Counted from the first letter of the stretch, positions 201 to 22,324 are shown. The stretch is DNA of 32,000 bases from Candidatus Electronema aureum (GCA_004284765.1 NQJD01000005.1:60001-92000); one strand, 5' to 3'. Numbers and translations: made by a program. Notes: generated from the letters alone by a model not told the origin.

Positions 201-2273
201 TCAGTTAATGATGCGCGGACGCAGCAGGATAATCAATTCACGCTTCTTTTTCTGCGTTTCCTCATAGCCGAACAGATATTTCAGATAGGGAATATTTTTG
301 GCTCCGGGAAGAAATTCTCCGCTTTTTGTATCCACTTCACTGATCAGTCCGCCAACCACGAGCATCGAGCCGTCCTTGATTTTAACCGTGGTACTCATTT
401 CTCGCTTGTTCACCACCGGCAGGCCAATTTTATTACCTTGACCAACTTCAACGTATTCAATGGGTTCTGAAAGCTCGGAAGTGATCGGCACCAAGTTCAT
501 AACGATTTCGTTATCTTGCTTCACCACCGCTGACAAGGCCAACCCGATGCCGGAGAGGATGTCAGCCGTCGTCACGGTAGAGGCTAATCCGCCGCCTTCG
601 GTTTGCGTTGTCGCTATCGATTTAATGTAGGTCACATTTCTTCCGACAGAAATCAGTGCAGGCTGACCATTCATCACACTGATCTTTGGATTAGAAAGAA
701 TCGAAGTCTGGCCCTGATTCTGCAACGCCTTGATGAAAGAAGTAAAGTTAAAACCAGCTAATGTAACCCCTGTGGACACAGCTTCTGCCATCCCGCCGCT
801 GCTGGTAATAAAGGTGGCAGCAGTGGTTCCCATAGACAAGGCATCGGTCAGACTGCGCACTGTTGACCTGCCGCTCGAATTCATGCTGGACTCTCCGCTT
901 AACGTTGCGTCTGAAAATCCAGAATTGAGCGCACCTGACAATGTATTATTAGAACTATTGACACCTGTGGTAACGCCTGTGGTTGTATTTGTACCAGTAT
1001 TTGTATTTGTCGTGCCAGTGCTGTTAGTCACAGTGCCGGTATTTGTGTTTGTACCGGTATTGTTGACGGCACTGTCAGATAGTTGGCTATTCGTTCCATC
1101 GCTACTGCTGCTATTGGAACTGTCTTGATTGGAAAGGCGAGAATTTGCTTGGCTTGTTGTATCAGTTGTGGTATCTGAAAAATCAGCTGAAGAGGTCGTT
1201 CCACTGTCTTCGCCACTATCCCTGTTGTAAGTTTTCATTTTACCGTAGCGAATGCCGTCCAAGCTCAAACCCTGTAACAGCATGTTCCAGTTGACACCCA
1301 GCGAGGAGCTATCATTCAACTGTACCTCAATAATTTTTGCTTCAATCAGAATTTGCTTATACAGCTCCTTTTCCAAGGTAGCAAGATAATCGGAAATTCT
1401 CTTCTGTAGCGATTTGGGTGCGTGTACCGTGATCAAGCCGACAGGCTTATCGATGGTGTAGGTTGAATCGGTGGATGAAACCCGGCGAGAAAGCGGGGCA
1501 GGAGCGACCGCTTCCTCTTCATCACTCTTCTTTTTATCAGCAGTTGCAGCTCCCTTTTTTTCTTCTTTCTGCTCCGGTACAGCAGTTGTCTGCGCTTCCG
1601 GCGTGGCAACAGATGCACTCCATGTGCTTATGAGGCTATCGATATTTTTCTGGATATTTTCCCAGATATCAAATTTATTGTCGCTGCTGGAAACTGATGA
1701 CCCTGAATCAGTTCCGGTGAACGATTTATAATCCTGCTTAATGAAAGGCATAGCAACATGATAACGTTTTGTCTCCCGGTATTTAATAACCAGTGTCGAT
1801 CCTTCCACTTCGTGGAAATAATCTAACTGACGCAGGATATTATCAATCGCCTCATAAAAATTATCATTAGCCGTGGCATCAATATCAACAAGCAGCTCTT
1901 GATCTACATCGGGAGACCAACTCAGACTCATGTTTTTGGTTTTAACTATCGCCTTCATTGCCTCCCGCAGCGGAATCGGTTGCGTAGTGGTGATGTTGGC
2001 TCCAACTTTCAGCTGGAGGCCATCTAACGCTGCGGCATTGCTCCCACTTAATGAAGTACCTGTGTCTTTTTCCTCATTGATCATATAGCCTGTTTGCCGA
2101 AAACGATTTGGCAACAGAGCTGGTTCAACCACCGTGCGATGCTGAGGCGTTTCCGAAGCTGCCGCTGGCGGCGGTGTTTCAGTTTTTTTGTCTTTTTCCA
2201 CGCAGGAGCAGAGCAGGAGCAGCGGGAGAGCCGCCGCAAGACAGCTAGGCAGCAGGCGTGTATGAAGTTTCAT
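201..2273 (-). CDS. pilQ: Type IV pilus secretin (PilQ/MshL-like, probable lipoprotein) with a large Ser/Thr/Asn-rich insertion
   Basis: 690-aa ORF. The N-terminal signal has LLLLCSC (possible lipobox). The secretin core starts at ILIEAKIIEVQLNDSSSLGVNW. The C-terminal secretin signature is ILSNPKISVMNGQPALISVG...VVGGLISE...IPYLKYLFG...RELIILLRPRII. It is the last gene of the pilMNOP-linked cluster. Confidence 0.85.
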   Translation of the reverse strand: MKLHTRLLPSCLAAALPLLLLCSCVEKDKKTETPPPAAASETPQHRTVVEPALLPNRFRQTGYMINEEKDTGTSLSGSNAAALDGLQLKVGANITTTQPIPLREAMKAIVKTKNMSLSWSPDVDQELLVDIDATANDNFYEAIDNILRQLDYFHEVEGSTLVIKYRETKRYHVAMPFIKQDYKSFTGTDSGSSVSSSDNKFDIWENIQKNIDSLISTWSASVATPEAQTTAVPEQKEEKKGAATADKKKSDEEEAVAPAPLSRRVSSTDSTYTIDKPVGLITVHAPKSLQKRISDYLATLEKELYKQILIEAKIIEVQLNDSSSLGVNWNMLLQGLSLDGIRYGKMKTYNRDSGEDSGTTSSADFSDTTTDTTSQANSRLSNQDSSNSSSSDGTNSQLSDSAVNNTGTNTNTGTVTNSTGTTNTNTGTNTTTGVTTGVNSSNNTLSGALNSGFSDATLSGESSMNSSGRSTVRSLTDALSMGTTAATFITSSGGMAEAVSTGVTLAGFNFTSFIKALQNQGQTSILSNPKISVMNGQPALISVGRNVTYIKSIATTQTEGGGLASTVTTADILSGIGLALSAVVKQDNEIVMNLVPITSELSEPIEYVEVGQGNKIGLPVVNKREMSTTVKIKDGSMLVVGGLISEVDTKSGEFLPGAKNIPYLKYLFGYEETQKKKRELIILLRPRIIN

Positions 2274-2293: not shown

Positions 2294-3991
2294 TTAGTTG
2301 GAACGGGTCCTGTTGATGATGAAAGCCCTCAAGTCTTGCGGGACACTGAAACCGGCATGAAGAATTGCCGTGTATGTCTTGTCCGCTTCCTCTTGTCGGC
2401 CCTGCTGATCCTGGATGCGAGCACGAGAAACCATAGAATCCAAATCTTCTCCGTACAACTCGCTGTATTTGTTCAGCAGCCGCAAGGCTGCATCATACTG
2501 TTTTTGCCGCTCACTGAATACTGCGTAACTAAACAGAGCTTCCCGACTTGGCTTGCTCATGCTGATACTTTGATCAAAATACTGTTGCGCTTGGCTGTTC
2601 TCTTCCATGTTGGCATGACCAATCGCCGCATTCAGAGCTGCACTGCCGTTTTTCTTGTCAATGGCAAGTGCTTTGTTGGCGTAATAAACTGCCTTGGCAT
2701 TTTGATTGAGTTTAACAAGATAGATAGAAGCTATCCTGTTGGCTAACTTGCCTTTTTCCTTTTTTTCTACTTTCTCCGGCCAAACATCAAACGCTTTTTC
2801 ATAAAGCTGAACAGCCGTTTCTACGCTGCCCTCTTTTTCTGCCTTGATTGCCAAAGCTGCAATTTTTTTTGCTTCCATAGCTTCTGGCGGCACTGCCTGT
2901 CCATCACCCTGCGTGATGACAATAGGAATACCTTTGCTGTTCGTTTTTCCAGCGTCCACTGTGTCGATATTCAGCGAAGATTCCGCTGCTGACCTCTGTG
3001 GCCAGACAAATTCCTTGCTCTTAGGATAAATGACAATGGTGTTGTGCCGTTGCTCTTTGGCTAAATCTTTTAAATTTAGAATGATGTCTAAGACAAAATC
3101 CCAAGGAACTTCGTGCAAAGCAAGGGTTAAAGTGCCAGCAACGCCTTCAGATACAATAATATTGTAACCGCTGATTTCTCCCAAGAGACGGAATACATTA
3201 TGCAGATCAACCTTATAAAAATCGACTGTGATTAAACTACTGTCCGCCCCAGCTAAAGGAGAGGTCGCCGCAGCAGGCCCTGCTGCGGTCGAGCTGCCGC
3301 CGAAATTTCCAGCGTTTTTCATGGTCGGATTCACCGGTGGCAGATGCGCTTCAAGAGATTCGCCACTGGGTGTGCTATTTTTCACCTTATTTGTATCAAC
3401 AGGAGCTGAACTGGTCGCTGGAAGTGACAAAGGCCCAGTGCCTCCTGCTGGAGACTGCTCTTTGAAAAAATTCACAATAACTAAAATGACACTATTTTCC
3501 TTTAAGCTGGATGTATATGAAGAATACGGCTCTGGAAAATCAAATTTTAATCGCAACCGATCAATTCCATCCTCTATTTTTGCTGAACTGTTAAGTACAA
3601 CATTAAAAACTTTTAACGAACTCAAATCTGCTGACTTCTGCATCTCCGTATTAGCGATATCAACACTAATACCTTTCCTGTCGCTGCCGGGTAGCTCATA
3701 TACATTTGGCGGAGGTTCTATTATTTTTTCGCAGCGGATAGTAATTTCCAGATTTTTTTCAACCTGCTGCGCACTTATTCCGAGAATGCTGTTTCCTTTC
3801 GCAGCAGGAGCAACTGTTGCACCCGTCTCCTGCTGTTGCGGCTGAACAACAGCGGCTCCAGTGTCCTGAGCGACCGCGTCAGAAGGAATTTTTGTCAACA
3901 AAAGACCCGCAACCGCAGCGGCGGTAAAAAAAAGATGATTGCAACTGTATCTGTTGTTTTTCTGACGAGCTGACAAAACGAAATGCGACAT
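2294..3991 (-). CDS. AMIN domain + secretin-N0(STN)-like domain + C-terminal TPR repeat protein (pilus secretin accessory)
   Basis: 565-aa ORF with a signal peptide (FFTAAAVAGLLLTKIPSDAVAQD). It has an AMIN-like segment (NLEITIRCEKII...LRLKFDFPEPY...VILVIVN). It also has a PilQ-N0-type signature (ITVDFYKVDLHNVFRLLGEISGYNIIVSEGVAGTLTLALHEVPWDFVLDIILNLKDL). About 180 aa of TPR-like helical repeats follow at the C-terminus. Domain calls are by eye. Confidence 0.7.
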   Translation of the reverse strand: MSHFVLSARQKNNRYSCNHLFFTAAAVAGLLLTKIPSDAVAQDTGAAVVQPQQQETGATVAPAAKGNSILGISAQQVEKNLEITIRCEKIIEPPPNVYELPGSDRKGISVDIANTEMQKSADLSSLKVFNVVLNSSAKIEDGIDRLRLKFDFPEPYSSYTSSLKENSVILVIVNFFKEQSPAGGTGPLSLPATSSAPVDTNKVKNSTPSGESLEAHLPPVNPTMKNAGNFGGSSTAAGPAAATSPLAGADSSLITVDFYKVDLHNVFRLLGEISGYNIIVSEGVAGTLTLALHEVPWDFVLDIILNLKDLAKEQRHNTIVIYPKSKEFVWPQRSAAESSLNIDTVDAGKTNSKGIPIVITQGDGQAVPPEAMEAKKIAALAIKAEKEGSVETAVQLYEKAFDVWPEKVEKKEKGKLANRIASIYLVKLNQNAKAVYYANKALAIDKKNGSAALNAAIGHANMEENSQAQQYFDQSISMSKPSREALFSYAVFSERQKQYDAALRLLNKYSELYGEDLDSMVSRARIQDQQGRQEEADKTYTAILHAGFSVPQDLRAFIINRTRSN

Positions 3992-4200
3992 TTTTATTGA
4001 TCTCCCTCTTTTTTCAAGCGAATGACCGTTCTCTTCGCAATAATTCTGTCACACAGAATGTGATATTTTTTCATGATACATCCGTCTTTATTTTCATGAC
4101 AGTGTCCTCTCTGCCCCGATTCTTGATCAGTATCCTATCTCAAAAGAACTGTTACGAACAATAATAAATGCAAAATATACGCACCGTATTGACTCATTCC

Positions 4201-4752
4201 TTACTTATCTTCTTCTTTTTTTAAGGTCATTATAATTTCATTATTTATCTCTCTGCCGGATTGCGTTTTACGAATTTCTTGGATAATGACTTGACCATCT
4301 TTAATCATCACTATTTTTCCGTGTTTACCTATGAGTATGTTTTCACGCAGGATATACCCCTTGCCAGCCGTATCTTCTGCCATAGCGATTTTGCTGCCCT
4401 GAACCCCCATCACCGCTACCAGTCTCAACTGACCTGGCTCAAATAAACGCATTCCAGTGAGCCGCTCGTTGTTTTCGTCAATAATCGGGTCTACAGTATC
4501 TTTTTTTTCTTTAGCTTCCTTAGCTATGAACGAATAAAAAGGATCAGGCCGGTTATCTAACTGATATTCAAATTTAGCCCTTTTTCGTCCCTCTCCTGCA
4601 TCTAATGTTTGTTCCGCTGTCGTTGCAGCAGTCTCTGCCTCTACCACAGCGGGAGGAGGCGGTTCTTGAGCTATGGACACCATCACCCGGCATAGTTCGC
4701 CTGTCAGCAGCGTCACTATCAGGAAAGCGTATTTTTTTGAGCTAAACCGCAT
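4201..4752 (-). CDS. pilP: Type IV pilus assembly protein PilP-like
   Basis: 183-aa ORF directly after pilO. It has an N-terminal hydrophobic anchor and a Pro/Ala linker. The C-terminal beta-domain pattern is LRLVAVMGVQGSKIAMAEDTAGKGYILRENILIGKHGKIVMIKDGQVIIQE, typical of PilP. Confidence 0.7.
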   Translation of the reverse strand: MRFSSKKYAFLIVTLLTGELCRVMVSIAQEPPPPAVVEAETAATTAEQTLDAGEGRKRAKFEYQLDNRPDPFYSFIAKEAKEKKDTVDPIIDENNERLTGMRLFEPGQLRLVAVMGVQGSKIAMAEDTAGKGYILRENILIGKHGKIVMIKDGQVIIQEIRKTQSGREINNEIIMTLKKEEDK

Positions 4753-15370: not shown

Positions 15371-15487
15371 CTATCCTTTGATCACCGCCAGCGGCAGCAG
15401 GCTCACTTCAGCCGCCACCAAATCGCTCTGATTTGCCATCACTGTCTCAATATTTTTGTACGGGCCGAGAGCTTCGTCAAGGTCTTT
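15371..15487 (-). pseudogene. rtcB: Displaced 3'-terminal remnant of rtcB (last ~38 codons plus stop)
   Basis: By manual alignment, 117 nt match the real rtcB 3' end (16987-17103) at about 100 of 117 positions without gaps. The minus-strand translation is KDLDEALGPYKNIETVMANQSDLVAAEVSLLPLAVIKG*. The intact gene reads KDLDEAPGSYKDIETVMENQSDLVDIAVSLLPLAVIKG*. There is no upstream coding continuation. Confidence 0.8.
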
Positions 15488-15512
15488 TTTGCAGCAAGCG
15501 GCAGAGCGGTCT

Positions 15513-16157
15513 TCAAAGGTCGAGCATTTTCAGCAAGTCCGGGGCATCTTCGCAGGCCAGTTCCGCCAAGGCATAGAATTCGGACATGGCGCTGTCCAAG
15601 GCATCTGTCTTCTCATCCCGATCCTTTGTTGCCTGCTGGGCTTCGCCGGTTTCTTTAGCTTGAATGATGTTGGCCTGTTCCGCTGCAACGACCAAGGCCT
15701 TTGCTGCGTTGACGGCATCCGGCGGGGTGTTGTACTGGCTGTATTTTGCCAAGGCATTCTGATCACTCAGGAGATTGCTGAAAAAGGTGTTGGCTTGGGC
15801 CAGCCAGCCGGAAAAGGTCCGCTTGCGCTCCTCGTTCAGGGTCAGCTTGATAAAGATGGCGTGGTTATCCCGGAACAGAATCCGCCCCAGCCGGATCAGG
15901 CGCATATAGGTGTCATGGGCGGTCTTCCAAGCCTGCTCAAAGGCGGCGGTGGCGGCGTGCTGCTCGCTGTACTCGGTTTTCTGGGCAAGATAGAGGTCGA
16001 AGGCCTGCTGCCGCTGCGCCAGCATCTGATTGAGTTTGTCCGGGGTGTAGCCGTACAGAGCGACCCGGCTTTGCAGCTCCGGGACATCGCGGGCATTGGT
16101 GAGGCCGGTCAGGTAGCGATTCAGGCGGTCTTCGATGGAATGATACGGGGCTGGCAT
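15513..16157 (-). CDS. Hypothetical all-helical protein (214 aa), cassette gene 2
   Basis: The ORF has a strong RBS (AGGAGG, 6 nt before the ATG). Its composition looks protein-like and helical, unlike the overlapping plus-strand ORF. I recognise no motif. Confidence 0.6.
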   Translation of the reverse strand: MPAPYHSIEDRLNRYLTGLTNARDVPELQSRVALYGYTPDKLNQMLAQRQQAFDLYLAQKTEYSEQHAATAAFEQAWKTAHDTYMRLIRLGRILFRDNHAIFIKLTLNEERKRTFSGWLAQANTFFSNLLSDQNALAKYSQYNTPPDAVNAAKALVVAAEQANIIQAKETGEAQQATKDRDEKTDALDSAMSEFYALAELACEDAPDLLKMLDL

Positions 16158-16437: not shown

Positions 16438-16875
16438 TCACTGGAAAAGGAGAAATTTCTTGAAATGTATAAACCAGCTTTCCGGTTGCGGTTTAATACT
16501 AGCTATCACTTTAAAAGAATCTTTATGAGAAGCCTCGAATTTTCCTAATTCTTCCCATTTATTAACTTTTTCATAATCAAATGGATCCGATAAGTAAATG
16601 TGACGAATTGTGTCTAAAAACACATCCTGACTAAACGCTGAACTTTTTGCAAGAATTTCAAGAACAGCGGGGTCTATATTATCATTGTGTTTTTCTTTAT
16701 ATAGTTTATATGCATTTTGGACGGCACCAGTAGCATTATTTGCCCTAGCATGTAGATCCCATGTTTGTGAATGCACAAGTTTTTTCAGCTGACTATTTTT
16801 TATCCCCTGATAAATTCCATACACAAAACTTAATGTTGTAATAACTAAACCAGTTATAGTCCAAATATCAGGCAT
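16438..16875 (-). CDS. Hypothetical protein with N-terminal TM helix (145 aa), cassette gene 1
   Basis: The ORF has an RBS (TAGGAGT). The N-terminal sequence IWTITGLVITTLSFVYGIY is a TM helix. By eye it is markedly more AT-rich than its neighbours, suggesting foreign origin. I recognise no motif. Confidence 0.55.
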   Translation of the reverse strand: MPDIWTITGLVITTLSFVYGIYQGIKNSQLKKLVHSQTWDLHARANNATGAVQNAYKLYKEKHNDNIDPAVLEILAKSSAFSQDVFLDTIRHIYLSDPFDYEKVNKWEELGKFEASHKDSFKVIASIKPQPESWFIHFKKFLLFQ

Positions 16876-16986: not shown

Positions 16987-17947
16987 CTATCCCTTGATCA
17001 CCGCCAGCGGCAGCAGGCTGACCGCGATGTCCACCAGATCGCTCTGATTTTCCATCACCGTCTCAATATCTTTGTACGAACCAGGAGCTTCGTCAAGGTC
17101 TTTCTGATTGCGGATGCCGTGCACCACGCCGAGCGCGTCCAGCCGCTCCACTTCGGCCTGCAAATTCAGCTCGCGCTGGGCTTGGCCGCGCCCCATCTTC
17201 CGTCCTGCGCCGTGACTGCACGAGCAGTAACTTTCCCTGTTCCCTTTGCCGATGACGATGAAGCTGCGGCTGCCCTGCGAGCCGGGAATGATGCCAAATT
17301 CCCCGGCAAAGGCGCGGGTGGCCCCTTTGCGGTGAATCAGCACTTCTTTGCCGAAATGCTCCTCCATTGCTGCGTAGTTGTGGGCGATGTTGATGAACTG
17401 CGGAAACTCAACCGCGCCAACAACCTCCTGCACCGCTGCCTTGACCCGCTCCATCATCAGCTTGCGGCTGGCAAGGGCGAAATCCACGCACCAGCTCATT
17501 TCCGCCAGATACTCCTGCGCCTCTTGCGTCTCCAGCGGCAGAAAGGCAAGCTCCCATTTCTTCGGCACCTCGCTCCGCCACCGCTCGTTCAGACTGACAG
17601 CCAAGCGGTTGTAGTGCTCCGCCACCTTCAGGCCGATGTTGCGGCTGCCGGAGTGAATCATCAGCCAGACATGGCCGTCGTCGCCCTGCTGCATTTCGAT
17701 GAAATGATTGCCCCCGCCCAAGGTGCCGATCTGCTTGCAGCCCGCCTCGAACTGCTCGCGGACAATGGATTTTTCCACGCCGTCCAGCCGGGCCGGATCG
17801 GGCATCAGGCTTCTGTCCTGCTGCCGCTTGTGGTGGTCAAAGCCGACTGGCACCGCTGCCCGGATCAGGCCGAGAATCTTTTTCAAGGTTTCGCGGTCAA
17901 GGCCGGGCAGAGAAGTCTGCACGGCGCATACGCCGCAGCCAATGTCG
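16987..17947 (-). CDS. rtcB: RNA 3'-phosphate/5'-OH ligase RtcB, exon 2
   Basis: The reading frame extends upstream of the ORF-track start to (G)DIGCGVCAVQTSLPG. It contains RtcB hallmarks GGGNHFIE, IHSGSRNIG, AHNYA and SCSHGAGR. Exon 1 (212 nt) plus exon 2 (961 nt) gives 1173 nt, or 390 codons plus a stop. Confidence 0.9.
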
Positions 17948-18689
17948 CCTTAGTCCGCATGTTTTCATGCGGCGTGGACTATACCTTCATCCCGGTCTCA
18001 GGAATTAACAGTTCCTCGCGGGAGTCCGCCGTGTTAACAGCATCCCAGTCCCAATGCACCAGCCGATGGCAGTTGGCGCACAACAAGTCACATTTGGCAG
18101 CCTCTTCACGTATAGCAGGCAGGCTGTATCTGTTGACAGAGTTGTTGTTGAGATTAAACAGTTTTTCCGAAGCGTCACGATGGTGAAAGTCAAATATTGC
18201 TGTGCACTCTCCATCGAAATCAAGTCCGCACAATAAGCATTTTCCGCCAGCCTCGATGATAAGCTGTGCTTTGATGCTGTGAGTGCGGATTTTTTTGTAT
18301 TTTTGACGCTTCGGCCTGTTCCGGTGATTCCATTCACGTTTATACTGGCGCGGATCATCATATTTTCGATTGTTATGACCACTGACATACTGCTTGTCAC
18401 GGCCATAACGATCCTTTGATTTAATGACAGTGCCGCAGCCGCAAGCACATGGAACCTCTGGGGCTTCGTTGTAGATGCGGTCGAAATATCGCTGTTTTAT
18501 CTGTTGTGCTGTCAGTTTCATTTCAACGCATCTGCAACATTTTTGCTGTTCTGCGGCCCTGTCTGTTGCAAGGCCGCAAGTCTCTGAACCATTTGACTGC
18601 GTCGCCGCAGCCTCTGGCTGCTGATTGCCATGTCCTTTCGGATTTAGGGTTCCAGCAATTGAGCGGATTTAACGGGGGCCGATCAATTA
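17948..18689 (-). mobile_element. Group I intron (742 nt) carrying an HNH homing endonuclease ORF, inserted in rtcB
   Basis: All sequences are read on the minus strand.
- P1: exon GGGGGU pairs with intron GCCCCC (intron nt 11-16), giving a U.G pair at the cleavage site.
- P10: exon 2 CGA pairs with UCG immediately 5' of the guide.
- The last intron nucleotide is G.
- Core elements resemble the classical P/Q/R/S set: TCAATTGCTGG (18652-18662), AATCAGCAGCC (18616-18626), GGTTCAGAGACT (18579-18590) and AAGGTATAGTCC (17976-17987).
- GNRA-capped hairpins are UCC-GAAA-GGA and GGCUGCG-GCGA-CGCAGUC.
- The 3' hairpin is CCGCATG-AAAA-CATGCGG. Confidence 0.85.
17979..18521 (-). CDS. HNH homing endonuclease (intron-encoded)
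   Basis: 180-aa ORF with an N-terminal Cys cluster (CACGCG...GH). The HNH motif is CLLCG...FDFHHRD...N...CANCHRLVH. It lies wholly inside the rtcB intervening sequence, and its stop codon overlaps the S-like element. Confidence 0.85.
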   Translation of the reverse strand: MKLTAQQIKQRYFDRIYNEAPEVPCACGCGTVIKSKDRYGRDKQYVSGHNNRKYDDPRQYKREWNHRNRPKRQKYKKIRTHSIKAQLIIEAGGKCLLCGLDFDGECTAIFDFHHRDASEKLFNLNNNSVNRYSLPAIREEAAKCDLLCANCHRLVHWDWDAVNTADSREELLIPETGMKV

Positions 18690-18901
18690 ACCCCCACAGC
18701 GTTTGGAATCACCGCGCCGTCGCAGGCCAGCACGCCGCCAATGGGCATTCCGTAGCCTTCGTGGGCATCGGGCATGAGCGCCACGTGGCGGAAGGTGAAG
18801 GGGTGATTGGCCAGATTGCGGGCCTGCGCCAATGCGCCCGCCTCCATGTCGTCAAGCCAGAGCTTAATCGGCCTTTTTTCCGAGTCTATGACCTTTTTCA
18901 T
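18690..18901 (-). CDS. rtcB: RNA ligase RtcB, exon 1
   Basis: MKKVIDSEKRPIKLWLDDMEAGALAQARNLANHPFTFRHVALMPDAHEGYGMPIGGVLACDGAVIPNAVGV matches the RtcB N-terminus layout (MPDxH...G.PIGGV...IPxAVGV). In the genomic sequence the frame hits a stop 2 codons later. Confidence 0.9.
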
Positions 18902-21080: not shown

Positions 21081-21908
21081 TCATGCTACAGCAAGGAAGG
21101 GACGCATTGCCGCATCACTGCGGGCGATATCCATCAGTGTTCGGTCGTTGCAGTTGAGAATGACTGCGTCTAAGCCAGCAGCGGCCAGCAAAGGCAGCAG
21201 CCGATGGTGGAAGGCTGGGCGTTTAGCCGCAGGCAGAAAAGTGGAGGCACTGGACAGTGCCAGCAGTGAAGGCACTTTTTCTTGGCTCAGAAGCGGCAGA
21301 GCGGCAAGAGTTTCCAGCACCGGATCAATGTCCGGCAATCCTTGACGAACAGGATCAGGGCTGGGACGAAAAAGCGGATCAACGTAGAGTTTTTTCAACG
21401 GAAAATTGGTGCGAGTTGCAGTTTCCAACACCTCGGCAGCCAGCTGGAGCCGGTCATCCGCCGTAAAGGGCGAGAGACCGGGCCGAGCCAGCAGCACCAC
21501 CAATTTAGCCCCGCAGTCCCTTACTTTTTCCATGTCAGTGGCTAAAGTCATCGGATCAGCGGTCACAGAGTTGACAGTCAACTTATCCCCGTGTTTCCGC
21601 AGCAATGCGGGTTGGGACAAAATCTGAGAGGCAACAAACAAAGGCAGCTGCGTTGCTGCCAGAATGGTCTCAACCGCCCAAGTGAGCAGGCCACCGTTTT
21701 TCTTGGCCGGGCCGAGGTTTAAATCCAAGGCATCAGCCCCGGCCTCTGCTTGCCGGACAGCTACAGCTGCCAGCGCACGGCTATCTCGCCCCTCAATTGC
21801 CCGGAAAAATAACGGATTCATGATCTGCATGTCTTGGCCGATGAGGCGCAAGGCGTTCCTCTCTCCGTCGGTATTCCGGCGGGCTTTTTCTTGTTCAAAA
21901 AATATCAT
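21081..21908 (-). CDS. Stand-alone pterin-binding domain protein (methyltetrahydrofolate methyltransferase / MeTr-MetH-like)
   Basis: 275-aa ORF with a strong RBS (AAGGAGAA). LIGQ...AIEGRDSRALAAVAVRQAEAGADALDLNLGP resembles the start of the pterin-binding TIM barrel. ...NSVTAD... and a degenerate SNxSFG-like block (LSSASTF), followed by AAGLDAVILN, are also present. Assignment is by eye. Confidence 0.6.
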   Translation of the reverse strand: MIFFEQEKARRNTDGERNALRLIGQDMQIMNPLFFRAIEGRDSRALAAVAVRQAEAGADALDLNLGPAKKNGGLLTWAVETILAATQLPLFVASQILSQPALLRKHGDKLTVNSVTADPMTLATDMEKVRDCGAKLVVLLARPGLSPFTADDRLQLAAEVLETATRTNFPLKKLYVDPLFRPSPDPVRQGLPDIDPVLETLAALPLLSQEKVPSLLALSSASTFLPAAKRPAFHHRLLPLLAAAGLDAVILNCNDRTLMDIARSDAAMRPFLAVA

Positions 21909-22037: not shown

Positions 22038-22082
22038 ACCTCTCTCCTTTCCTCGAAGGGGATTAAGTGGGATGGTGCGTTG

Positions 22083-22292
22083 TCGGCAGGTTTTCGGACT
22101 TACGGACAAGCAGGCAAAACGCCTACGGGCCTACTAACCGTCGCTTCCCGTACCTTTCGGCACAGTGCTTTTCCTTGTTCAAGGAGACGGTGTTCGTTTC
22201 CGCTTACCGCTGCGGGACAGTCCCGGTTTTTCACCGGATTCCCTGTTGGCTGCCCTGCTCAATTCAGCAGGACAGCGTGCCACGCTTCCCAT
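22083..22292 (-). promoter_or_regulatory. Cobalamin (B12) riboswitch
   Basis: Three stretches read on the minus strand match the conserved core, B12-box region and 3' pseudoknot element of the cobalamin riboswitch as I recall the consensus: AACAGGGAATCCGGTGAAAAACCGGGACTGTCCCGCAGCGGTAAG, GCACTGTGCCGAAAGGTACGGGAAGCGACGG, and GTCCGAAAACCTGCC. An upstream hairpin CCTGCT-gaatt-GAGCAGG is also present. Confidence 0.8.
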
Positions 22293-22324
22293 GAAGCGTA
22301 CCGACAGCCATTATGATGATGGAT

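What the first reader, a model, noticed from the sequence alone, without database searches (positions are those of the whole stretch)
17948..18689. rtcB (RNA ligase) is split at its active-site motif by a group I intron carrying an HNH homing endonuclease
**What the sequence shows**
- An ORF encoding the RtcB N-terminus ends ...AVIPNAVGV, followed two codons later by a stop.
- 742 nt further on, the frame of the RtcB C-terminal ORF opens with DIGCGVCAV.
- Joining GGGGGT|CGACATT restores NAVGVDIGCG, the universally conserved metal-binding motif. From memory, E. coli has AAVGVDIGCGM.
- The joined CDS is 1173 nt, or 390 codons plus a stop.

**Why it is not an intein**
- 742 is not a multiple of 3.
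- The intervening sequence has in-frame stops.

**Group I hallmarks read directly on the minus strand**
- P1: exon GGGGGU pairs with GCCCCC, with a U.G pair at the splice site.
- P10: a 3-bp pairing (CGA/UCG) abuts the guide sequence.
- The terminal nucleotide is G.
- Elements closely resemble the classical P, Q, R and S sequences: UCAAUUGCUGG, AAUCAGCAGCC, GGUUCAGAGACU and AAGGUAUAGUCC.
- Two hairpins are GNRA-capped.
- A P9-like hairpin lies just before the 3' end.

**Context**
- The HNH ORF is looped out between R/P3' and S.
- Group I introns in bacterial chromosomal protein-coding genes are rare; most known cases are in phages or in tRNA/rRNA genes.
- I am not aware of one described in rtcB, whereas inteins in archaeal RtcB are known.
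- The host gene is itself an RNA repair and splicing ligase.
Basis: partly seen in the sequence, partly recalled or inferred. Interest (0 to 1): 0.8.

Follow-up and report, generated by a model that had tools for sequence, protein, structure and literature searches.

The report
Self-splicing intron inside bacterial rtcB
The RNA-repair ligase gene rtcB of a cable bacterium (Candidatus Electronema aureum type) is interrupted at its metal-binding motif by a mobile group I intron carrying its own HNH endonuclease gene. This is a well-known kind of selfish element in a host gene and bacterial group where I found no published report of it.

Summary

- **Gene:** on the minus strand, exon 1 (18901..18690) and exon 2 (17947..16987) join into a 1173-nt CDS. 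It encodes a 390-aa full-length RtcB and restores NAVGV|DIGCG.
- **Intron:** the 742 nt between them is a P2-less group I intron with P7.1 and P7.2, as in subgroup IA.
- **Rfam:** RF00028 gives 40.3 bits (E 1e-8), below the gathering score of 50. A homologous ORF-less copy at the same rtcB site scores 57.1.
- **Covariation:** across 13 homologues, 94.8% of cells pair, against 31-40% when partners are slid. 39 of 68 pairs change on both sides.
- **Correction:** the HNH ORF (18521..17979) sits in the P7.2 loop, not in P8. P3' lies within the ORF's 3' tail.
- **Mobility:** close Electronema relatives have an uninterrupted rtcB. Intron-bearing alleles share a flanking co-conversion tract. Their introns are 98.4% identical while their exons are 90.6% identical, which indicates recent homing.
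- **Distribution:** the same intron sits unannotated in Bacillus phages CM1, Goe20 and Goe27 and in many phage-like contigs.

It is a new member of a known kind. Splicing itself remains untested.

The parts
18690..18901 (-). rtcB exon 1 (codons 1-70 plus GT of Val71). Its last six bases, GGGGGU (18695..18690), are the 5' strand of P1.
17948..18689 (-). Group I intron, 742 nt. It has no P2 and has P7.1 and P7.2 (subgroup IA-like). The first base is U (18689) and the last is G (omega G, 17948). GC is 48.9% against 60.9% in the exons.
16987..17947 (-). rtcB exon 2 (third base of Val71, Asp72 to Gly390, and the stop). The first bases, CGA, pair with the internal guide (P10).
17979..18521 (-). Intron-encoded HNH endonuclease ORF, 180 aa. 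Its body lies in the P7.2 loop. Its 3' tail (NTADSREELLIPETGMKV*) is read through P7.2-3', P3', P8 and into P7-3', where the UAG stop lies inside GGUAUAGUCC.
18674..18682 (-). Internal guide sequence. GCCCCC (18679..18674) pairs with exon GGGGGU, with a U.G pair at the splice site. UCG (18682..18680) pairs with the 3' exon CGA (P10).
   Evidence: (helix 1); direct reading
18662..18667 (-). P3 5' strand, UCCGCU. It pairs with GGCGGA at 18030..18025.
   Evidence: helix 2 (100% paired, 3 pairs with changes on both sides)
18615..18657 (-). P4-P5-P5a(GAAA)-P5'-P4' and the start of P6. This covers the P (UCAAUUGCUGG) and Q (AAUCAGCAGCC) elements.
   Evidence: (helices 3-6)
18579..18612 (-). P6a hairpin with a GCGA loop, P6 3' strand, and element R / P7 5' strand (GGUUCAGAGACU).
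   Evidence: (helices 7, 8)
18545..18578 (-). P7.1 hairpin (18578..18552) and P7.2 5' strand AACAGC (18550..18545).
   Evidence: helices 9, 10
18025..18041 (-). P7.2 3' strand GCUGUU (18041..18036) and P3 3' strand GGCGGA (18030..18025). Both lie inside the HNH coding sequence.
17955..18023 (-). P8 extended hairpin (18023..17990), element S / P7 3' strand AAGGUAUAGUCC (17987..17976), and P9 hairpin (17972..17955).
   Evidence: helices 8, 11-13

Best explanation
This is a mobile group I intron inserted in the chromosomal rtcB gene of a cable bacterium (Candidatus Electronema aureum type). It sits between the second and third base of the Val71 codon, one base before the Asp72 codon, in the metal-binding motif VGV|DIGCG.

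**Inferred mechanism**
- rtcB is transcribed as one precursor.
- The intron folds into the P3-P9 core.
- Its guide sequence (GCCCCC) pairs with the exon end GGGGGU, giving a U.G pair at the 5' splice site.
- An external guanosine attacks that site.
- The terminal G (17948) then occupies the G-site. The UCG/CGA pairing (P10) aligns the 3' exon.
- The exons are ligated to give mRNA for a 390-aa RtcB.

The 180-aa HNH endonuclease encoded in the P7.2 loop is inferred to cut intron-less rtcB alleles near this site. Repair then copies the intron, plus a short stretch of flanking exon, into the cut allele (homing).

**Shown here:** the anatomy, the conserved and covarying RNA structure, in-silico restoration of a full RtcB, the existence of intron-less alleles, and the co-conversion and identity-discordance signatures.

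**Inferred, not shown:** catalysis of splicing, endonuclease activity and its target site, and a phage origin.
For: **Host gene**
- The joined CDS is a full-length RtcB.

**RNA structure**
- RF00028 aligns over the whole model at 40.3 bits, E 1.1e-8.
- ORF-less homologues at the same rtcB site score 57.1 and 49.8 bits, against a gathering score of 50.
- On 13 homologous introns, 94.8% of cells pair, against 31-40% when partners are slid.
- 39 of 68 pairs change on both sides, and 0 of 500 shuffles reach the observed values.
- P3, P6a, P7.1, P7.2, P8 and P9 all show compensatory changes.
- A blind MFE fold of the ORF-deleted core recovers P1, P4-P6a, P7.1, P7.2 and P9, with z = -3.8.
- The P1 guide tracks exon changes. 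For example, exon GGGCGU goes with guide GCGUCC in L277.

**Endonuclease**
- The ORF matches PHROG HNH families at 2e-21.
- It keeps the invariant HH...N...H residues and four Cys.

**Mobility**
- Uninterrupted 390-aa RtcB at 82-94% identity occurs in Ca. Electronema and Desulfobulbus genomes.
- The two intron-bearing alleles (window and L003) are identical over CDS 199-263.
- Across that tract they differ from the intron-less L345 at ten positions: CDS 201, 204, 207, 210, 229, 231, 237, 239, 247 and 263.
- Their introns are 98.4% identical while their exons are 90.6% identical.
- Intron GC is 48.9% against 60.9% in the exons.

**Context**
- The window is chromosomal: it carries the ATP synthase operon, a secretin and multihaem cytochromes.
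Against: - There is no RNA or protein evidence of splicing.
- The window copy is below Rfam's gathering score, and a default scan misses it.
- P2 is absent.
- No obvious Shine-Dalgarno sequence precedes the HNH start codon.
- The exact joined protein is not in the 15-billion-protein collection, so no spliced cDNA or identical intron-less allele was found.
- Five related introns appear to end in A rather than G. This shows that not every family member fits the canonical rules.
- The identical exon tract of 65 nt is not by itself statistically exceptional, because other equally long identical runs exist in the gene.
Confidence: 0.88

Rival explanations
1. The intron is real but no longer splices efficiently, or at all. 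rtcB in this genome would then be effectively a pseudogene, or be expressed as two fragments, and the element would be a recent and still intact-looking insertion.
For: - The insertion looks recent: the intron is 98.4% identical between two lineages whose exons differ by 9.4%. Intact exons therefore do not yet prove selection after insertion.
- There are no transcript data.
- The Rfam score is below gathering.
- rtcB is dispensable in many bacteria (general knowledge).
Against: - Every core helix, the U.G pair, the omega G and P10 are intact.
- ORF-less derivatives of the same intron are maintained with a perfect core in phages (L317, L342, L270). That is expected only if splicing is selected.
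- A more diverged intron-bearing allele also keeps an open exon 2 as far as its contig reaches (L246: HNH 79% and RtcB 78% identical).
Confidence: 0.08
2. rtcB is disrupted by a free-standing HNH gene with no ribozyme. The two pieces are either dead or work as a split protein, as in the mobE-split nrdA of phage Aeh1 (recalled from the literature).
For: - Homologues of this HNH do occur as free-standing genes directly upstream of intact rtcB (L254, L006, L167, L086, L091).
- Annotators call the pieces separate ORFs.
Against: - About 200 nt of non-coding flanks carry the invariant P/Q/R/S core and covarying helices.
- The boundaries restore the reading frame to the nucleotide in 14 of 14 loci.
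- ORF-less versions of the insert exist.
- The free-standing HNH copies that were checked lack the core: L254, L167, L086 and L091 by Rfam, and L006 only by an R-motif scan.
Confidence: 0.02
3. The insertion is an intein, or another in-frame protein-level insertion, in RtcB. Inteins are known for this protein.
For: RtcB is a recognised intein host: 27 bacterial and 10 archaeal cases are listed in PMC4760082.
Against: - 742 is not a multiple of 3.
- A stop codon follows one codon after the junction.
- The HNH ORF is in a different frame and has its own start codon.
Confidence: 0

Closest known systems
Phage subgroup IA group I introns in protein-coding genes (T4 td, nrdB, sunY; Bacillus phage SPO1/SP82 DNA-polymerase introns encoding the HNH enzymes I-HmuI and I-HmuII). 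Comparison from established literature, recalled.
   Same: - Same core sequence elements (P, Q, R, S).
- Extra P7.1/P7.2 helices.
- Insertion at a highly conserved catalytic motif of a nucleic-acid enzyme.
- An endonuclease ORF looped out of a peripheral helix.
- Homing with co-conversion of flanking exon.
- 34 IMG/VR sites share the 16-nt Q-element string followed by the R motif.
   Different: - The host gene is rtcB.
- P2 is absent in all 14 copies.
- The ORF sits in the P7.2 loop, and its tail is read through P3', P8 and P7'.
- The HNH protein family has no significant sequence match to any solved structure, I-HmuI included.
- This copy is in a bacterial chromosome.
Group I introns in bacterial chromosomal protein-coding genes (recA and nrdE of the Bacillus cereus/anthracis group, flagellin genes of thermophilic Geobacillus, nrdE of Trichodesmium/Nostoc). 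Recalled literature, not re-read here.
   Same: A rare class: a self-splicing group I intron in a chromosomal bacterial CDS, plausibly acquired from phages.
   Different: - The clade is new (Desulfobulbaceae cable bacteria) and so is the gene.
- Here there is direct comparative evidence of recent spread between diverged alleles of one genus.
The same intron in Bacillus phages CM1 (LC785692), vB_BsuM-Goe27 (OM728304) and Goe20 (OM728301)
   Same: - Identical insertion point (GGGGU|...|N-GAY-AUH-GG).
- Same architecture.
- HNH of the same family, about 61% identical.
   Different: - The phage RtcB is only about 32% identical.
- The records annotate separate ORFs and no intron.
- The CM1 copy ends in A rather than G.
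- Goe27 carries a second intron, encoding a LAGLIDADG protein, further along in rtcB.
RtcB inteins (survey in PMC4760082)
   Same: A selfish, self-splicing element with a homing endonuclease lodged in a conserved part of RtcB.
   Different: They splice at the protein level and are in-frame. The element here is an RNA intron. I did not verify the intein insertion positions.
Free-standing homing endonucleases that target an intron insertion site (F-CphI next to cyanophage psbA; the Bonocora and Shub 'collaborative homing' model). Recalled.
   Same: One endonuclease family occurs both free-standing beside the target gene and inside an intron in that gene.
   Different: - No cleavage data exist here.
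- The family also occurs antisense inside the intron (L088).

Membership tests
Group I intron (Rfam RF00028) | Covariance-model match at or above the curated gathering score (50 bits) | tested here: inconclusive
   - Window copy: 40.3 bits, E 1.1e-8, full model 1-253. It gets no hit in the default whole-window scan.
- The model has no place for P7.1, P7.2 or a 490-nt loop, and it misplaces the ORF in P8.
- Homologous ORF-less copies at the same rtcB site: 57.1 bits (L317) and 49.8 bits (L270).
Group I intron | Conserved core helices P3-P8, including the P3/P7 pseudoknot, supported by comparative data | tested here: met
   - 68 pairs, 94.8% of cells paired against 31-40% when slid.
- 39 pairs change on both sides, and 0 of 500 shuffles reach the observed values.
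- P3 is 100% paired, with 3 covarying pairs.
- P7 is invariant, which is uninformative but complementary.
Group I intron | P1 formed by an internal guide sequence, with a U.G pair at the 5' splice site | tested here: met
   - GGGGGU (18695..18690) pairs with GCCCCC (18679..18674).
- The guide changes with the exon in L277, L256 and L247 (and helix 1).
Group I intron | Terminal guanosine (omega G) and P10 pairing with the 3' exon | tested here: met
   - The window has G at 17948, and UCG/CGA gives a 3-bp P10.
- In relatives P10 is 3-6 bp and covaries (L276 GUCG/CGAC, L270 AAAUCG/CGAUUU).
- Caveat: 5 of 14 relatives end in A.
Group I intron | Self-splicing initiated by exogenous guanosine | not testable with these tools
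   This needs an in vitro transcript or RNA-seq.
Subgroup IA (Michel and Westhof classification, recalled) | Additional helices P7.1 and P7.2 between P7 and P3' | tested here: met
   -, helices 9 and 10: 92% and 97% paired, with 6 and 4 pairs changing on both sides.
- P7.2 is 6-12 bp in every copy.
- Assignment to a finer subgroup was not attempted.
HNH (beta-beta-alpha-Me) homing endonuclease | Profile match and catalytic/zinc motif (HH...N...H plus CxxC...CxxC) | tested here: met
   - PHROG HNH endonuclease families match at 2e-21 and 1.7e-18.
- H113, H114, H152, C95, C98, C148 and C151 are invariant, and N150 is conserved in at least 90% of 40 homologues.
- Pfam gives no HNH hit, and PDB gives none at E below 0.1.
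HNH homing endonuclease | Cleaves the intron-less allele and promotes homing | not testable with these tools
   Indirect support only: the co-conversion tract, and intron versus exon identity of 98.4% against 90.6%.
RtcB RNA ligase (PF01139) | Full-length domain with the metal-binding D-x-x-C motif intact after joining | tested here: met
   - 368.6 bits over profile positions 1-426 of 426.
- It aligns with solved RtcBs across ...GVGFDINCGV....
Intein | In-frame insertion with no stop codon, translated with the host protein | tested here: not met
   742 nt is not divisible by 3, and a stop follows one codon after the junction.

The most novel reading that the evidence does not exclude
This HNH family may be a dedicated rtcB-targeting homing endonuclease caught in every stage of intron colonisation.

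- It is found free-standing, immediately 5' of an intact rtcB.
- It is found inside the rtcB intron in the sense orientation.
- It is found inside the same P7.2 loop in the antisense orientation.
- ORF-less copies of the intron also exist.

If so, the rtcB system would make the long-standing hypothesis directly testable that free-standing endonucleases first target an intron's insertion site and then move into the intron. The Electronema copy would be an intron that is currently homing between chromosomes of an uncultured bacterial population.
Probability: 0.45. Interest if true: 0.65.

Novelty: new member of a known kind. Interest (0 to 1): 0.55.

Why it matters
- **Annotation:** rtcB in Ca. 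Electronema aureum, and in several Bacillus phages, is currently called as two or three unrelated ORFs, with the endonuclease called 'hypothetical' or a 'restriction endonuclease'. These calls should be merged into one spliced gene.
- **Rarity:** it adds a new host gene and a new bacterial clade to the short list of group I introns in bacterial chromosomal protein-coding genes.
- **Mobility in the wild:** it comes with unusually clear comparative evidence of recent mobility. Intron-less and intron-bearing alleles occur in one genus, with a co-conversion tract and a near-identical intron in diverged alleles.
- **A model system:** rtcB has two intron hot spots at active-site motifs. One endonuclease family occurs in free-standing, sense and antisense arrangements. 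Together these offer a compact natural system for studying how endonuclease genes and introns associate.
- **Limits:** it does not reveal a new mechanism.

Tried and rejected
- **Default Rfam scan of the whole window.** It found only a cobalamin riboswitch. The intron needed the permissive mode on a short stretch.
- **Rfam's placement of the ORF in the P8 loop.** Rejected. Comparative data put P3' after the ORF and the ORF in the P7.2 loop.
Only about 10 useful loci came out. Exact-protein look-ups and a 16-nt core pattern worked better.
- **L246 as an apparent 'HNH upstream of contiguous RtcB 51-311'.** This was a spurious tblastn extension. It is the same intron, cut off by the contig end.
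- **A loose regular expression for the 3' exon.** It matched inside the ORF and was fixed.
- **Alternative splice junctions for the five copies ending ...AGUA|C.** I tried to rescue an omega G. No combination of a U at -1 and a G at omega keeps the frame without adding a residue. P10 supports the common junction. This is left unexplained.
- **Exact look-up of the joined 390-aa protein,** as a proxy for a spliced cDNA or an identical intron-less allele. It is not in the collection.
- **PDB profile search with the HNH family.** Nothing was significant.
- **Literature searches for a group I intron in rtcB, in cable bacteria or in Electronema.** Nothing was found. Subscription journals are not covered.

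Full report
**1. The observation**

On the minus strand an ORF runs from 18901 and reads ...DGAVIPNAVGV-N-stop. Downstream, the frame that continues RtcB opens with DIGCGVCAV. Cutting after GGGGGT (18690) and before CGACATT (17947) removes 742 nt (18689..17948). What remains is a 1173-nt CDS of 390 codons plus a stop.

The product matches Pfam RtcB from end to end: 368.6 bits, profile positions 1-426 of 426. It aligns with the solved Thermus and Pyrococcus RtcB proteins straight across the junction, which read GVGFDINCGV and GIGYDINCGV there. The removed stretch is not a multiple of three, and a stop follows one codon after the junction. An intein is therefore excluded.

**2. Is the intervening sequence a group I intron?**

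A default Rfam scan of the whole window finds only a cobalamin riboswitch. A permissive scan of 17850-18780 aligns Intron_gpI (RF00028) over the whole model at 40.3 bits, E 1.1e-8. That is below the curated score of 50, so I looked for independent evidence in homologues.

The intron-encoded protein belongs to a large family: 273 hits, aligned as A1. Context look-ups, a phage search and a 16-nt core pattern gave 14 loci in which rtcB is interrupted at exactly the same nucleotide. In all of them exon 1 ends ...GGGGU, or GGGCGU, and exon 2 begins N-GAY-AUH-GG.

The 14 loci include:
- Bacillus phages CM1 and Goe27;
- phage-like metagenome contigs;
- three ORF-less copies of 272-304 nt (L317, L342, L270).

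The ORF-less copies score 57.1 bits (L317) and 49.8 bits (L270) on RF00028. In those alignments P7.1 and P7.2 appear as an insertion between P7 and P3'.

**3. Structure**

I aligned 13 of the 14 copies (L342, a near-duplicate of L317, was left out), with the ORF replaced by NNNN (alignment A2). The model I wrote for the window sequence has P1, P3, P4, P5, P5a, P6, P6a, P7, P7.1, P7.2, P8 and P9. Counting pairs on A2 gave these results:

| Measure | Result |
|---|---|
| Cells forming standard pairs | 94.8% |
| Same, with 3' partners slid by 1-3 columns | 31-40% |
| Pairs with changes on both sides | 39 of 68 |
| Shuffles reaching any observed measure | 0 of 500 |

P3 (UCCGCU/GGCGGA) changes to CUCACU/GGUGAG in CM1 and to CCCUCU/GGAGGG in Goe27. 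P6a, P7.1, P7.2, P8 and P9 covary at most positions. P4, P6 and P7 are invariant.

The P1 guide follows the exon: GGGCGU goes with GCGUCC in L277, and GUCGGGGU with GCUCAGAC in CM1. P10 is 3 bp in the window and 3-6 bp elsewhere, and it also covaries.

A blind minimum-free-energy fold of the ORF-deleted window core recovers P1, P4, P5, P5a, P6, P6a, P7.1, P7.2 and P9, with z = -3.8.

The intron has no P2. It has the P7.1/P7.2 pair that characterises subgroup IA. I recalled that classification rather than testing it beyond the presence of the helices.

**4. Correction on the ORF**

- P3' (18030..18025) lies after the body of the ORF.
- The ORF occupies the loop of P7.2 (AACAGC 18550..18545 with GCUGUU 18041..18036).
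- The last 21 codons, encoding ...AVNTADSREELLIPETGMKV*, are read through P7.2-3', P3', P8 and into P7-3'. The UAG stop lies within GGUAUAGUCC.

This explains why the 'NTAD' tail is conserved in the proteins that extend that far.

**5. The endonuclease**

The 180-aa ORF has no Pfam hit but matches PHROG HNH endonuclease families at 2e-21. In 40 homologues the HH...H residues and two CxxC pairs are invariant, and the Asn (N150) is conserved in at least 90%. This is the pattern of a zinc-stabilised HNH fold. No solved structure is detectably related by sequence. Activity and target site are inferred.

**6. Whose gene is it, and is the intron mobile?**

The HNH protein is identical to a protein of Candidatus Electronema aureum (TAA75623.1, CAK8714909.1). 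The window carries the F1Fo ATP synthase operon, a secretin and multihaem cytochromes, so it is chromosomal.

The joined RtcB is 82-94% identical to uninterrupted 390-aa RtcB proteins. These come from:
- Ca. Electronema spp. JM, JC, TJ, V4, VV and PJ;
- Ca. E. halotolerans;
- Desulfobulbus sp. F3/F4.

At the DNA level the comparison runs as follows:
- Intron-less alleles read GCG GTT GGT GTC GAC ATT (L345) or similar.
- The two intron-bearing alleles (window and L003) both read GCT GTG GGG GT|C GAC ATT. They are identical from CDS 199 to 263.
- Within that tract they differ from L345 at ten positions (201, 204, 207, 210, then 229, 231, 237, 239, 247, 263).
- The two introns are 98.4% identical and their HNH proteins are 100% identical. 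Their exons are only 90.6% identical.
- Intron GC is 48.9% against 60.9% for the exons.

Together these are the classical marks of recent homing with co-conversion into diverged alleles.

One caveat applies. The 65-nt identical tract is not on its own statistically exceptional, because the gene has other long identical runs. The argument rests on the shared differences from the intron-less allele and on the discordance between intron and exon identity.

**7. Wider family**

Most other carriers look like phages, with many small ORFs, tRNA genes and an Rnl-type RNA ligase nearby. Among 50,697 cultured phage records, only CM1, Goe20 and Goe27 carry this intron. There it is annotated as separate ORFs, while many related Bacillus phages have an uninterrupted rtcB.

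The same HNH family also occurs in other arrangements:
- **Free-standing:** immediately upstream of an intact rtcB in L254, L006, L167, L086 and L091. No ribozyme core was found there: Rfam for L254, L167, L086 and L091, and only an R-motif scan for L006.
- **Antisense:** inside the P7.2 loop of the rtcB intron in L088.

By my count, 20 of the 22 informative contexts put this HNH family next to or inside rtcB. I read this as a dedicated rtcB-targeting endonuclease lineage with several relationships to the intron. That reading is an inference.

**8. What is not settled**

There are no RNA or protein data, so splicing competence of this copy is inferred from intactness and from the maintenance of ORF-less relatives.

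Five related copies (L247, L248, CM1, L317, L342) end ...AGUA|C. The terminal nucleotide would therefore be A, although their P7 is identical to the others and P10 supports the same junction. I could not find a frame-preserving alternative and leave this unexplained.

**9. Novelty and score**

I found no paper describing a group I intron in rtcB, in cable bacteria or in Electronema. RtcB inteins are documented (PMC4760082). The library does not cover most subscription journals.

The element is an ordinary kind: a phage-type group I intron with an HNH homing endonuclease. What is new is the host gene, the bacterial clade, and the unusually good comparative evidence of recent mobility.

- **Verdict:** finding supported.
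- **Novelty:** new member of a known kind.
- **Interest:** 0.55.

Noticed in passing
window 22068-22320 (-): A cobalamin riboswitch aptamer (RF00174, 84.2 bits, E 1.4e-19). It lies upstream, on the minus strand, of a 275-aa ORF (21908..21081) that has no Pfam hit.
   Followed up: no
window 15371-15488 (-): A 117-nt duplicate (about 87% identical) of the last 39 codons of rtcB, including the stop. It lies 1.5 kb downstream of the real rtcB 3' end.

The two copies flank two ORFs with no Pfam hit (145 aa at 16438-16875, and 214 aa at 15513-16157). This looks like the scar of an insertion or replacement at the rtcB 3' end.

Related genomes carry different cargo at this position: a UPF0175/DUF3368 pair in L003 and L345.
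   Followed up: partly
L255 (Bacillus phage Goe27) about 3291-4400; L088 about 898-1127 (-); L087 about 372-1467 (-): rtcB has a second group I intron site, between GTLGGG and NHFIE (exon GGU|...G|AAUCAYUUC).

- The Goe27 copy scores 67.4 bits on RF00028 and carries a 262-aa double-LAGLIDADG ORF.
- The L088 copy is about 230 nt and has no ORF.
   Followed up: partly
L088 1646-2146 (+), inside the rtcB intron, which is on the minus strand: The HNH gene (50% identical to the window's) lies in the P7.2 loop of the same rtcB intron, but on the antisense strand relative to the intron and rtcB.
   Followed up: partly
L254 2001-3663; L006 3001-4709; L167 2501-4099; L086; L091: Homologues of the HNH gene are free-standing, directly upstream of an uninterrupted rtcB and often overlapping it. 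No group I core is present.

L091 also keeps an RtcB N-terminal fragment (residues 7-65) upstream of the HNH gene.
   Followed up: partly
L247, L248, L256 (phage CM1), L317, L342: 3' ends of the rtcB intron: These copies end ...AGUA|C-GAY. The terminal intron nucleotide would therefore be A, not the near-universal G. P7 is unchanged and P10 supports the same junction.
   Followed up: partly
L007 (Aliterella atlantica CENA595) 2719-3674: An HNH homologue sits between an RtcB N-terminal fragment and the last roughly 50 codons of rtcB. Most of rtcB appears to have been deleted or replaced.
   Followed up: no
L167, L249, L277, L091, L087: tRNA genes cluster next to the phage-like rtcB loci; L277 alone has eight. 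This fits a tRNA-repair role for phage RtcB.
   Followed up: no
IMG/VR loci L257-L342: 34 sites in IMG/VR contigs share the 16-nt Q-element string GGCAAUCAGCAGCCAG followed by the R motif GUUCANAGAC. Most of them have a P2 hairpin and different flanking exons. The rtcB intron therefore belongs to a large phage intron family that also sits in other genes.
   Followed up: no
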